Positions 24,001 to 27,000 of a DNA stretch of 64,000 bases are shown here, piece after piece (the first letter of the stretch is position 1; each line of letters begins with the position of its first letter). The stretch lies in the NCBI RefSeq assembly GCF_017348835.2, contig NZ_CP071375.1. One strand, given 5' to 3'. This stretch comes from Escherichia coli (GTDB lineage Bacteria; Pseudomonadota; Gammaproteobacteria; Enterobacterales; Enterobacteriaceae). Position numbers: made by a program.

Positions 24001-27000
24001 CGGGCAATCCGGAAGCGGACCCGGAGCAGGAGCTGAGCGACCGCTGGGTGGTGGAGCAGATGTCAGAGCTGACGGCCATGACAGCCTCGTTTGTGCTGGC
24101 AACACCGACGGAGACGGACGGGGCGCTGTTTCCTGGTCGCATCATGCTGGCGAACACCTGTATGTGGGATTACCGGGGAGATGAATGCGGGTATAACGGT
24201 CCTGCGGTGGCGGATGAGTTCGACAACCCCACCACCGATATCCGTAAGGACAGATGCAGCAAGTGCATGCGCGGGTGTGAGATGCGCGGCATGGTGGCTA
24301 ATTTTGGCGGTTTCCTTTCCATTAACAAACTTTCGCAGTAAATCCAATGACACAGACAGAATCAGTGATTCTGGCACACACCCGGCGGTGTGTGCCTGCG
24401 GAGTCGTGCGGCTTCGTGGTGAGAACGCCGGAGGGGGAGCGGTATCTGCCGTGTGTGAATATCTCTGCAGAGCCGGAGGCGTATTTTCGTATTGCACCGG
24501 AAGACTGGCTGCGGGCAGAGATGCAGGGGGAGATTGTGGCACTGGTCCACAGTCATCCCGGTGGTCTGCCCTGGCTGAGCGAGGCCGACCGGCGGCTGCA
24601 GATAAAAAGTGCACTGTCCTGGTGGCTGGTCTGCCGGGGGGACATTCATAAATTCCGCTGTGTGCCACATCTGACAGGACGGCGCTTTGAGCACGGGGTG
24701 ACGGACTGTTACACGCTGTTCCGGGATGCATACCATCTGGCGGGAATTGATATGCCGGATTTTGAGCGTGAGGATGACTGGTGGCGCAACGGTCAGAACC
24801 TTTACCTGGACAATATGGAGGCCACTGGTTTTTACCGGGTGCCCCTGTCCTCGGCACAGGCAGGCGATATCCTGCTGTGCTGCTTTGGCGCATCGGTACC
24901 CAACCATGCTGCCATTTACTGCGGCAACGGTGAACTGCTTCACCATCTGCCTGAACAACTGAGTAAACGGGAGAGGTATTCCGAAAAATGGCAACGACGA
25001 ACGCATTCTGTCTGGCGTCACCGCCACTGGTCCGCATCTGCCTTCACGGGGATTTACAACGATTTGGTCGCCGCATCAGCCTGAATGTGAACACGGCAGC
25101 GGAAGCCATCCGGGCGCTGTCGTTACAGGTGCCCGGATTCCGCCGTCAGATGAACGAAGGCTGGTACCAGATACGTATTGCCGGTGATGACACGGCACCG
25201 GAGGCGGTGTACGCCCGTCTTCACGAACAGCTGGGTGAGGGAACGGTCATCCACATTGTGCCGCGACTGGCCGGGGCCGGAAAGGGTGGACTGCAGATTG
25301 TGCTGGGGGCGGCAGCCATCGTGGGCTCTTTCTTCACTGCCGGCGCAACGATGGCGTTATGGGGTTCAGCCCTGGCAGCCGGTGGTTTTTCTGCCACCAC
25401 GATGCTGTTTTCACTTGGAGCCAGCATGATACTGGGTGGTGTGGCCCAGATGCTGGCCCCGAAGGCAAAAACACCGGATTACCGCGCAACGGATAACGGC
25501 AGACAGAACACGTACTTTTCGTCACTGGACAACATGATTGCCCAGGGTAACCCGATGCCGGTGCCTTACGGGGAAATGCTGGTTGGCTCCCGCCGTATAT
25601 CCCAGGACATCAGTACCCGTGATGAAGGCGGTGACGGGAAGGTGGTGGTTATCGGGCGGCAGGCATAAAAGCGAAAAAATCCCGCAGTGCTCACGGACAG
25701 GAACTGCGGGAGCGTTACGAAGATTGAGTGTAAGGAATTATTCTTATGTCACGACAAAAACATTAACTCAGAGAGGGAGGATGTGCCGTTCTTTTCAGGG
25801 AGAAAGGATTTATCGTCCTGAGGAATAAAGGTAAGGGGCCCGCCCCTTACCTGACTGATTATTGAATGATGCCGCAGGCCATTCTCGCACCACCACCGCC
25901 CAGGGGCTCCGGATGGTCATGATGGTTATCACCGCCAGCATGAAGCATGAGAGAACGCCCTTTAATCTCTTTTAATGAGTTCAGTCTCGGGGCCAGGACC
26001 GGGTAGTTCGCTTTTCCGTCATGCGTCACGAACAGCGCAGGGAGGTCGCCCAGGTGTCCATCCGGAGACCAGGGGCCAAGATGTTTGCCGGTGTTTTTCG
26101 GGTCAAAGTGACCGCCAGCCGATAATGCTGCGACCGGTTTTCCGTCTTTCAGTGCCGGGGCGCAATTTCCTTTTTCGTGCACATGAAAACCATGAATGCC
26201 TTCAGACAGAGAGTGAAGGGCTGGTGTGAACAGCAGACCGTAGGGGGTCTCCTGAATGGTTATTTTTCCAATGCTGACTTCTTTTCCGTCAGCACTGACA
26301 AGGTTCATTGGGACTTCCTGTTCTGCTGCGTATCCGCATGATGCTGCTGTCAGCATGGCAATGGCAGCAATGATTTTACATTTCATAAAACCCTCATTAA
26401 TTCCGTTAACAGACTGAGCTTGCTGGTTACAGGGTAACAAACAGCGTTCTGATGATATCGCGCAATAGCTGTGCAATATCCTATCACTGCGATTAATAAT
26501 ACCAATTGAGAGGAACATTATGGGTAAAGGTGGCGGCAGGGCGCACACGCCGGTTGAGGCAAAGGACAATCTTAAGTCCACGCAGATGATGAGCGTGATT
26601 GATGCCATTGGTGAAGGGCCGATTGAAGGTCCGGTGAAGGGGTTGCAGAGTATCCTGGTGAACAAAACCCCGCTGACGGACACGGACGGTAATCCTGTGA
26701 TACATGGTGTGACAGCGGTCTGGCGCGCCGGGGAGCAGGAGCAGACACCACCTGAAGGCTTTGAGTCCTCCGGGGCGGAAACCGCACTGGGCGTGGAAGT
26801 GACGAAGGCAAAGCCGGTGACGCGCACCATTACGTCCGCGAACATTGACCGCCTGCGGGTCACCTTCGGGGTGCAGTCACTGTTGGAGACCACCTCAAAG
26901 GGCGACCGTAATCCCTCTTCTGTCCGACTGCTGATTCAGTTGCAGCGTAACGGTAACTGGGTGACGGAAAAGGATGTCACCATTAACGGCAAGACCACCT

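What the first reader, a model, noticed from the sequence alone, without database searches (positions are those of the whole stretch)
25669..26519. Periplasmic Cu,Zn superoxide dismutase moron inserted convergently between tail genes I and J
An intact sodC with signal peptide sits on the opposite strand between I and J, which are adjacent in lambda. It is bounded by a GC-rich palindrome (25831-25850) on one side and its own upstream region on the other. This looks like lysogenic-conversion cargo for oxidative-stress resistance.
Basis: partly seen in the sequence, partly recalled or inferred. Interest (0 to 1): 0.45.

Follow-up and report, generated by a model that had tools for sequence, protein, structure and literature searches.

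The report
Known prophage sodC-F1 superoxide dismutase gene
This is the already-studied prophage copy of a copper/zinc superoxide dismutase gene (sodC-F1 of pathogenic E. coli), sitting backwards between two phage tail genes; the gene is ordinary, but it has landed on a small regulatory RNA gene (PasB family) and removed that gene's predicted promoter.

Summary
An intact 175-codon gene lies at 25859..26386 on the minus strand, between lambda-like tail genes I (24988..25668) and J (26520..29996). It matches Pfam Sod_Cu (E 3.9e-32) and solved bacterial SodC structures (E ~1e-62). It keeps every Cu and Zn ligand, the disulfide cysteines, the catalytic Arg and an export signal with an AASC lipobox.

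It is not new. The 851-nt I-J spacer differs by one base from Sakai prophage Sp4 (ECs_1120). That base gives Leu112, the sodC-F1 allele. D'Orazio et al. 2008 showed that SodC-F is expressed in lysogens, does not depend on RpoS, is dimeric and very stable, is partly lipid-anchored, and helps peroxide survival. The whole module is in 546 of 5426 complete E. coli genomes. Salmonella Fels-1 carries a 60%-identical sodC in the same slot.

Two corrections:
- The cassette-specific DNA is 25775..26519, so it does not start at the stop codon of I.
- Bases 25674..25770 (minus strand) are a PasB-family sRNA body with its terminator. sodC-less relatives carry the complete sRNA gene here.

Every sodC-bearing copy examined has lost the predicted -10 box of that sRNA gene. 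I did not find this described in the papers I read. Interest is low.

The parts
25859..26386 (-). sodC coding sequence, sodC-F1 allele. 175 aa plus a TAA stop.
   Evidence: ORF and translation. (Pfam Sod_Cu, E 3.9e-32). (PDB SodC structures, E ~1e-62). (ligands invariant). (one base from Sakai ECs_1120; Leu112).
26327..26386 (-). Signal peptide, residues 1-20 ([20 protein letters not shown]). The AASC lipobox is residues 14-17 (26336..26347). The predicted SPase I cut follows residue 20 and the SPase II cut precedes Cys17.
   Evidence: Sequence. LipoP prediction and fractionation of SodC-F1 in D'Orazio 2008.
25829..25852 (-). GC-rich hairpin 7 nt after the sodC stop, with a 10-bp stem and 4-nt loop. 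It is followed on the minus strand by UUUAUUCC and is the likely intrinsic terminator of sodC.
   Evidence: terminator scan. (dG -17.9 kcal/mol, z -2.2).
26387..26519 (.). 133-nt AT-rich region (GC 0.40) between the divergent sodC and J starts. It holds the sodC Shine-Dalgarno (GAGGG), the still unmapped sodC promoter and, on the + strand, the J ribosome-binding site (GAGAGGAA).
   Evidence: The sigma-70 scan found no site reaching 9 of 12 matches. By eye there are two weak candidates: TGGTATTAT (26504..26496) and TTGGTA-N16-TAGGAT (26505..26478). Neither is verified. Promoter activity of the upstream region is reported.
25775..26519 (.). DNA specific to the sodC cassette (745 bp). It is absent from sodC-less relatives, which carry about 130 nt of other sequence here.
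   Evidence: Alignments. GC 0.505 against 0.596 (I) and 0.578 (J). GC3 0.51 against 0.65 and 0.72.
25674..25770 (-). PasB-family sRNA body and terminator. The hairpin is 25681..25710 and the U-run is 25679..25674. The predicted -10 box is missing.
   Evidence: PasB coordinates and Northern probe. PasB lies between I and J in E2348/69. Alignment. nhmmer E 2.8e-32, the only hit in the window. 60 of 77 aligned bases are identical to PasB. -10 comparison across 45 unique units.
24988..25668 (+). Tail assembly gene I. Its 3' end faces the sodC 3' end (convergent).
26520..29996 (+). Tail tip / host specificity gene J. Its 5' end faces the sodC 5' end (divergent).

Best explanation
The segment is the prophage-borne Cu,Zn superoxide dismutase gene sodC-F1. 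It is carried as a self-contained cassette on the strand opposite the late tail operon of a lambdoid prophage resembling Sakai Sp4.

In the lysogen the late operon is silent. sodC is transcribed from its own upstream region and ends at the hairpin at 25829..25852. The precursor is exported by its N-terminal signal. Part is released as soluble periplasmic enzyme after signal peptidase I cleavage, and part is lipid-anchored at Cys17 after signal peptidase II cleavage. The mature enzyme is a very stable dimer that converts superoxide to O2 and H2O2 in the cell envelope, which raises resistance to exogenous oxidative stress.

Shown here: gene integrity, the catalytic residues, the export signal, the terminator-like hairpin, the foreign base composition, the cassette boundaries and near-identity to the studied allele. 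Taken from the literature: expression in lysogens, RpoS independence, the dimeric state, enzyme activity, lipid anchoring and the peroxide phenotype. Inferred: the position of the promoter, and that the benefit applies in this host.

The cassette sits on a PasB-family sRNA gene. It keeps the RNA body and terminator but replaces the predicted promoter.
For: - Domain and structure matches: Pfam Sod_Cu, E 3.9e-32; solved SodC structures at E ~1e-62.
- Catalytic residues: H68, H70, H93, H102, H111, D114, H149, C75, C171 and R168 are invariant against E. coli SodC, SodCI and SodCIII.
- Identity to the studied gene: the 851-nt spacer is identical to Sakai Sp4 except at 26052, which gives Leu112, the sodC-F1 allele.
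- Published work (D'Orazio 2008): FLAG-tagged SodC-F accumulates in log and stationary phase and under anaerobiosis, independently of RpoS, and is enriched in intracellular bacteria. Purified SodC-F1 is dimeric, has 19,380 U/mg, resists proteinase K and EDTA, and melts at 78-87 C. It is found in both soluble and detergent phases. Mutants are more sensitive to H2O2.
- Cassette features: a terminator-like hairpin and lower GC and GC3 than the tail genes.
- Distribution: the module is present in 546 of 5426 complete E. coli genomes and in two Stx2a phage genomes.
- Precedent: a 60%-identical sodC occupies the same slot, in the same orientation, in Salmonella Fels-1.
Against: - No sigma-70-like promoter reaching 9 of 12 matches was found upstream of sodC, so the promoter is unmapped here.
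- No expression data exist for this particular strain.
- In O157 the triple sodC mutant was no more peroxide-sensitive than the single-class mutants, so the specific benefit of the phage copy in vivo is not proven.
- In Sakai, sodC_1 changed only 1.3- to 1.7-fold after 6 minutes of TiO2/UV-A oxidative stress.
Confidence: 0.95

Rival explanations
1. The gene is a silent or decaying passenger, with no function in the lysogen.
For: The sigma-70 scan finds no strong promoter. In the 99.75%-identical PE164 prophage, PGAP flags the portal, capsid and tape-measure genes as frameshifted, so the prophage may be decaying.
Against: The ORF is intact and all catalytic residues are kept. The sequence is essentially invariant across hundreds of genomes. 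The same DNA is expressed and active in O157.
Confidence: 0.03
2. SodC serves the phage itself, either during lytic growth or as a virion component, rather than the lysogen.
For: It lies inside the tail gene cluster, next to the tail-tip genes.
Against: It is on the opposite strand to the late operon and has its own terminator, so late transcription reads it antisense. It has a Sec/lipoprotein export signal. It is expressed in uninduced lysogens.
Confidence: 0.03
3. The sodC-bearing arrangement is ancestral, and the sodC-less I-J spacers are deletion derivatives.
For: Fels-1 has a diverged sodC in the same slot, which could point to an old insertion.
Against: sodC-less spacers hold a complete PasB-type unit: promoter, body, terminator and a + strand terminator. 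This unit occurs in many diverged variants and even as 4-copy tandem arrays. All sodC-bearing copies examined (window, L021, L037, L110, L113) carry the same truncation of that unit. The cassette has a lower GC3 than the tail genes. Fels-1 shares only the coding region and the J ribosome-binding site, not the non-coding parts.
Confidence: 0.08
4. The enzyme works mainly as a membrane-anchored lipoprotein rather than as a soluble periplasmic enzyme.
For: The AASC lipobox with Cys17 fits the lipoprotein signal pattern. SodC-F1 partitions into the detergent phase, and a version made with a signal peptidase I-only leader that lacks the lipobox Cys is fully soluble.
Against: The same experiments show a substantial soluble fraction. 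[quoted passage not shown]
Confidence: 0.3

Closest known systems
SodC-F1 / SodC-F2 of E. coli O157:H7 (sodC_1, ECs_1120, in Sakai prophage Sp4; D'Orazio et al. 2008, PMC2569942)
   Same: The whole 851-nt I-J spacer is identical except for one base. The protein is identical to the Leu112 (F1) form. The flanking genes are the same (I, J, lom, tail fibre).
   Different: The Sakai Sp4 copy and the ATCC 35150 copy examined carry Pro112 (F2). The host here is closest to a pig isolate, PE164, rather than O157.
Salmonella Fels-1 SodCIII (STM0924)
   Same: It sits between I and J on the opposite strand. It is a periplasmic Cu,Zn SOD with 60% amino-acid identity and all ligands conserved.
   Different: Its non-coding flanks cannot be aligned apart from the J ribosome-binding site. 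It has no PasB unit, no GC-rich palindrome and no lipobox Cys. The Fels-1 record annotates it only as a hypothetical protein.
Salmonella Gifsy-2 SodCI (STM1044; PDB 1EQW)
   Same: It is a prophage-borne, dimeric, stable SodC on the strand opposite the tail genes. It has 59% identity and is a known virulence factor.
   Different: It sits at a different site in the tail cluster, between the lom homologue and L, not between I and J.
Chromosomal E. coli SodC (b1646; PDB 1ESO)
   Same: Same family, same ligands, 59% identity.
   Different: It is monomeric, RpoS-dependent, restricted to stationary phase, fully soluble, less stable, and lies at a core-genome locus.
PasB sRNA of EPEC E2348/69 (Pearl Mizrahi et al. 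2021, PMC8550237; Zhu et al. 2026 preprint)
   Same: Same position directly after gene I, same antisense orientation, same terminator stem (CCCGCAG / CUGCGGG plus a U-run), and the conserved core UCCUU...AAUCUUC.
   Different: The window copy is a variant with 60 of 77 aligned bases identical. The sodC cassette has replaced its predicted -10 and -35 boxes.

Membership tests
Cu,Zn superoxide dismutase (Pfam PF00080, bacterial SodC) | Sod_Cu domain scoring above the Pfam gathering cutoff | tested here: met
   111.9 bits against a cutoff of 28.9, E 3.9e-32, covering profile positions 3-133 of 133.
Cu,Zn superoxide dismutase (Pfam PF00080, bacterial SodC) | Four Cu-ligand histidines, including the bridging His | tested here: met
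   H68, H70, H93 and H149 are invariant in the alignment with E. coli SodC, SodCI and SodCIII. Their assignment as ligands rests on established knowledge of the family (structures 1ESO, 1EQW).
Cu,Zn superoxide dismutase (Pfam PF00080, bacterial SodC) | Zn ligands: the bridging His, two further His and one Asp | tested here: met
   H93, H102, H111 and D114 are invariant.
Cu,Zn superoxide dismutase (Pfam PF00080, bacterial SodC) | Intrasubunit disulfide cysteines and the active-site Arg | tested here: met
   C75, C171 and R168 are invariant.
Cu,Zn superoxide dismutase (Pfam PF00080, bacterial SodC) | N-terminal export signal | tested here: met
   MKCK, then a hydrophobic core, then AASCGYA|AE.
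Cu,Zn superoxide dismutase (Pfam PF00080, bacterial SodC) | Superoxide dismutase activity | not testable with these tools
   19,380 U/mg was measured for purified SodC-F1, the same protein.
Prophage SodC-F / SodCI class (dimeric, stable, RpoS-independent) | Encoded inside a lambdoid prophage and near-identical to sodC-F | tested here: met
   One base differs from Sakai Sp4 across the 851-nt spacer. The prophage context is shown.
Prophage SodC-F / SodCI class (dimeric, stable, RpoS-independent) | Dimeric quaternary structure and high stability | not testable with these tools
   Gel filtration at 30.6 kDa and differential scanning calorimetry are reported in D'Orazio 2008.
Moron (autonomous extra gene in a phage late region, in the sense of Juhala/Hendrix) | Present between genes that are direct neighbours in related phages | tested here: met
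   It is absent from lambda and from about 150 Stx phages with the same I and J. In those close relatives, however, the gap holds an sRNA gene rather than nothing.
Moron (autonomous extra gene in a phage late region, in the sense of Juhala/Hendrix) | Own terminator | tested here: met
   Hairpin at 25829..25852 with a U-rich tail.
Moron (autonomous extra gene in a phage late region, in the sense of Juhala/Hendrix) | Own promoter | tested here: inconclusive
   No sigma-70 consensus site was found in 25300..26900. Promoter-lacZ activity of the upstream region is reported.
Moron (autonomous extra gene in a phage late region, in the sense of Juhala/Hendrix) | Base composition unlike the neighbouring phage genes | tested here: met
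   GC 0.53 and GC3 0.51 for sodC, against GC 0.58-0.60 and GC3 0.65-0.72 for I and J.
PasB sRNA family | Lies between tail genes I and J, antisense to them | tested here: met
   PasB is at NC_011601 1466343..1466261 (-), between the I and J homologues. The window copy is at 25770..25674 (-).
PasB sRNA family | Sequence homology and a Rho-independent terminator | tested here: met
   nhmmer E 2.8e-32. 60 of 77 aligned bases identical. The hairpin with U6 is shown.
PasB sRNA family | Own promoter upstream of the RNA body | tested here: not met
   sodC-less units have TTCACA/TTTGCA-N16-TATAAT-like promoters matching 10 of 12. The window and all other sodC-bearing copies have CATCCTCCC where the -10 box would be.
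PasB sRNA family | Hfq-dependent stable transcript | not testable with these tools
   This is shown only for the E2348/69 copy. Tree et al. 2014 list no Hfq peak at the Sakai Sp4 spacer, though their filter excluded sites within 100 bp of a coding sequence.

The most novel reading that the evidence does not exclude
The sodC cassette did not land in empty DNA. It replaced the promoter half of a PasB-family, Hfq-binding sRNA gene. The intact RNA body (with its conserved anti-Shine-Dalgarno-like UCCUU core) and its strong terminator now lie just downstream of sodC's own terminator, which is followed by only an interrupted U-rich stretch. The sRNA might therefore be made only by read-through or processing of the sodC 3' end, which would tie a trans-acting regulator to sodC expression. 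Otherwise it is a dead relic.
Probability: 0.2. Interest if true: 0.45.

Novelty: already known. Interest (0 to 1): 0.13.

Why it matters
For sodC itself, little is added. It is a textbook lysogenic-conversion gene that has already been characterised biochemically and genetically, and it is annotated in hundreds of genomes.

The useful by-products are three:
- An exact map of the cassette (25775..26519).
- The recognition that the I-J junction of this tail lineage is a recurrent cargo slot. It holds either a PasB-type sRNA gene (one unit or four tandem units) or sodC.
- The observation that acquiring sodC removes the sRNA's predicted promoter.

If the leftover sRNA is still made from sodC read-through, this would be a natural example of a protein-coding cassette capturing an sRNA as its 3' end.

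Tried and rejected
1. Rfam found no family in 25400..26700 at gathering score. The only weak hit was STnc400 (23 bits against a gathering score of 80, E 0.1) over the sodC 3' end. It did not recur at the Gifsy-2, Fels-1 or O157 loci, so I treated it as chance.

2. I tested whether the conserved piece next to gene I was one of the EHEC anti-sRNAs (AgvB, AsxR). Those lie at the PR'/Q moron site, not here. None of the 63 EcOnc Hfq peaks maps to the Sakai Sp4 I-sodC spacer.

3. A full-text search for the hairpin sequence found nothing.

4. I looked for a small ORF in the I-side spacer. The short frames (MSRQKH*, MSRQKTLTQRNY*, MSQQKKR*) differ in frame and length between relatives, so I rejected them.

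5. I looked for non-coding homology between the E. coli and Fels-1 cassettes. Only the coding region and the J ribosome-binding site align.

6. The 344-aa ORF at 25859..26893 was rejected as an upstream extension of the sodC frame across the J start.

7. I did not run structure prediction or the large protein-database searches. Solved homologues at about 60% identity and an identical, already characterised protein made them unnecessary.
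Full report
**1. What is at the coordinates**

The interval 25669..26519 is exactly the spacer between a lambda-type tail assembly gene I (24988..25668, +; Pfam Lambda_tail_I) and the tail-tip gene J (26520..29996, +; seven GpJ-type domains). It holds one real gene on the minus strand. The start is the ATG at 26386 and the TAA stop ends at 25859, giving 175 codons. The ORF lister reports a longer 344-aa frame starting at a GTG at 26893. That frame is just the upstream extension of the same reading frame across the start of J. The ATG at 26386 has a GAGGG Shine-Dalgarno 5 nt upstream and is the start used in every annotated copy.

**2. Identity of the protein**

The product matches Pfam Sod_Cu over the whole domain (E 3.9e-32, 111.9 bits against a cutoff of 28.9). 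It also matches solved bacterial Cu,Zn SODs, including Haemophilus ducreyi 1Z9N, Salmonella SodCI 1EQW and E. coli SodC 1ESO, at E 9e-63 to 1e-56.

I aligned it with an O157 prophage copy, Fels-1 SodCIII, Gifsy-2 SodCI and K-12 SodC. The following residues are invariant:
- Cu ligands: H68, H70, H93 and H149.
- Zn ligands: H93, H102, H111 and D114.
- Disulfide pair: C75 and C171.
- Active-site Arg: R168.

Which residue plays which role follows from established knowledge of the family. The N-terminus, [22 protein letters not shown], is a signal peptide that also contains the lipobox AASC.

**3. It is a known gene**

The 1201-nt query around the gene is 100% identical to a prophage of the pig isolate PE164. 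It is 99.3-99.7% identical to O157:H7, O55:H7, O103, O45 and other strains. The complete I-sodC-J module is present in 546 of 5426 complete E. coli genomes and in two sequenced Stx2a phages.

The 851-nt spacer differs from Sakai prophage Sp4 (sodC_1, ECs_1120) at a single base, 26052. That is nucleotide 335 of the gene and changes Pro112 to Leu112. D'Orazio et al. 2008 (PMC2569942) define exactly this T/C difference as the distinction between sodC-F1 (Leu) and sodC-F2 (Pro). The window therefore carries the sodC-F1 allele.

That paper reports the following:
- FLAG-tagged SodC-F accumulates in uninduced O157 lysogens in both log and stationary phase, and also without oxygen.
- Promoter-lacZ fusions are independent of RpoS, unlike chromosomal sodC.
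- SodC-F1 partitions between the soluble periplasmic fraction and the detergent phase, consistent with partial processing at the lipobox.
- Purified SodC-F1 is dimeric, has 19,380 U/mg against 6,290 U/mg for SodC, resists proteinase K and EDTA, and melts at 78-87 C.
- sodC-F mutants are more sensitive to H2O2.

**4. Cassette anatomy**

Seven nt after the stop codon lies a hairpin at 25829..25852, with a 10-bp stem, 6 G-C pairs and a 4-nt loop (dG -17.9 kcal/mol). On the minus strand it is followed by UUUAUUCC, and the terminator scan picks it up. It is not followed by a T-run on the + strand.

The 133 nt upstream of sodC (26387..26519, GC 0.40) must contain the sodC promoter. The consensus scan finds no site reaching 9 of 12 matches there. 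By eye there are two weak candidates, an extended -10 (TGGTATTAT, 26504..26496) and TTGGTA-N16-TAGGAT. I could not test either. The same 133 nt supply the J ribosome-binding site on the + strand.

sodC has GC 0.53 and GC3 0.51. Genes I and J have GC 0.58-0.60 and GC3 0.65-0.72, which fits a foreign origin for the cassette. sodC is convergent with I and divergent from J.

**5. True boundaries, and what the cassette displaced**

About 150 Stx1a, Stx2a and Stx2c phages share the ends of I and J but lack sodC. Alignment shows that the first 106 nt after the stop codon of I (25669..25774) are shared with sodC-less phages. Homology resumes only at the ATG of J. The cassette-specific DNA is therefore 25775..26519 (745 bp).

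In sodC-less relatives the spacer is a conserved module of about 240 nt:
- A minus-strand Rho-independent terminator immediately after I (A-run, then CCCGCAG-loop-CUGCGGG).
- A body of about 100 nt.
- A minus-strand sigma-70 promoter at the same aligned place in three diverged phages (TTCACA-N16-AATAAT, TTTGCA-N16-TATAAT, TTCACA-N16-GATAAT, each matching 10 of 12).
- A + strand terminator and then the J ribosome-binding site.

I pulled 120 IMG/VR loci with the hairpin motif. In 82 of them the I-J spacer could be delimited (45 unique sequences), and these fall into four size classes:
- 240-268 nt: one unit.
- 349-350 nt: one unit plus another hairpin-bearing insert.
- 854-860 nt: sodC.
- 921-927 nt: four diverged tandem copies of the unit, with no ORF conserved among relatives.

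**6. The unit is PasB**

Table S6 of Pearl Mizrahi et al. 2021 (PMC8550237) places the Hfq-dependent sRNA PasB of EPEC E2348/69 at NC_011601 1466343..1466261 on the minus strand (83 nt). Its Northern probe is AATCCCGCAGTGATCGCGGAGCT. Those coordinates lie directly between the I and J homologues of prophage PP6, and the probe covers the terminator hairpin.

The window copy (25770..25674, minus strand) is a family variant. 60 of 77 aligned bases are identical to PasB, including the conserved UCCUU...AAUCUUC core and the terminator. A profile built from six relatives finds it at E 2.8e-32 and finds nothing else in the 64-kb window. Rfam 15 returned no hit for this RNA.

Among 45 unique units, nearly all sodC-less copies have a TATAAT-like box about 7 nt upstream of where homology with the window begins. 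All sodC-bearing copies (window, L021, L037, L110, L113) have CATCCTCCC there instead. The cassette junction therefore falls between the predicted -10 box and the predicted transcription start.

One caveat applies. The published 5' end, taken from RNA-seq coverage and an approximate Northern size, gives 83 nt. That is about 15 nt shorter than the roughly 98 nt expected from the predicted promoter. The start site is not firmly established, and promoter loss is an inference from consensus.

The 2026 Pas preprint that I read does not mention sodC or superoxide.

**7. Comparison with Salmonella**

Fels-1 carries SodCIII (60% identical) in the same I-J slot and the same orientation. Only the coding region and the J ribosome-binding site align at the DNA level, and there is no PasB unit and no palindrome. 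Gifsy-2 SodCI (59% identical) is also antisense within the tail cluster, but it lies between the lom homologue and L. Lambda has a 60-nt I-J gap with nothing in it.

**8. Verdict**

The object is already known and well characterised, so interest is low.

The added value is the corrected boundary, the recognition of the I-J junction as a recurrent cargo slot, and the beheaded PasB-type sRNA next to sodC. Whether that remnant is a relic or a product of read-through from the sodC 3' end is the only open question here.

Noticed in passing
window 25674-25770 (-): A PasB-family sRNA body and terminator lie directly after gene I. The sodC cassette has replaced the predicted promoter. The papers I read do not describe this.
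   Followed up: yes
L046, L076, L077, L088, L126 (I-J spacers of 921-927 nt): Some IMG/VR lambdoid phages carry four diverged tandem copies of the PasB-like unit between I and J instead of one. Three of the four copies have a TATAAT-like box (the second has GTGCAT instead), and each has its own terminator and a different central region. The third copy has a fully compensated terminator stem (UCUCCCGU/ACGGGAGA).
   Followed up: partly
L022, L023, L057 and others (I-J spacers of 349-350 nt): This is another spacer class. The + strand terminator of the basic module is replaced by about 200 nt that contain a different perfect hairpin (AAACCCCGGTATCTGCTGATACCGGGGTTT).
   Followed up: no
L005 4995-5519 (Fels-1 STM0924): The Fels-1 sodC (SodCIII) in the same I-J slot is annotated in the phage record only as 'hypothetical bacteriophage protein'.
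   Followed up: partly
window 3490-4006 (+): Three tRNA genes are followed by an STnc100 sRNA (138 bits). The same tRNA cluster lies downstream of the Q antiterminator gene in Sakai Sp4. The Pas preprint links STnc100 to PasD.
   Followed up: no
window 32438-33190 (-) and 33636-34034 (-): A tccP2 (Tir-cytoskeleton coupling effector) gene with proline-rich repeats lies here. It is 141 nt shorter than in the otherwise 99.75%-identical PE164 prophage, which probably means one repeat fewer. An EspV fragment follows it, downstream of the tail fibre genes.
   Followed up: partly
window 34126-34210 (-), and onwards: A tRNA gene lies here, annotated tRNA-Ser in PE164 and probably the attachment site. 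The core hya and appCBA operons follow. The prophage resembles Sakai Sp4 (95-99% identity in blocks) but is rearranged relative to it.
   Followed up: partly
window 30063-30662 (+): An Ail/Lom outer-membrane protein gene (Pfam E 5e-121) lies directly after J. It is a second piece of classic lysogenic-conversion cargo, on the same strand as the tail genes.
   Followed up: no
window 30721-32040 (+): A tail fibre gene with a long collagen-like Gly-X-Y repeat region.
   Followed up: no
window 53030-53452 (+): A full-length match to the cspA thermoregulator (158.8 bits) lies in the chromosomal part of the window. This is presumably the 5' UTR of a cspA paralogue.
   Followed up: no
L003 (PE164 prophage), equivalent to window ~12800-23300: PGAP flags the portal, major capsid and tape-measure genes of the near-identical PE164 prophage as frameshifted. 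Either the prophage is defective or that assembly has indel errors. I did not check this in the window.
   Followed up: no
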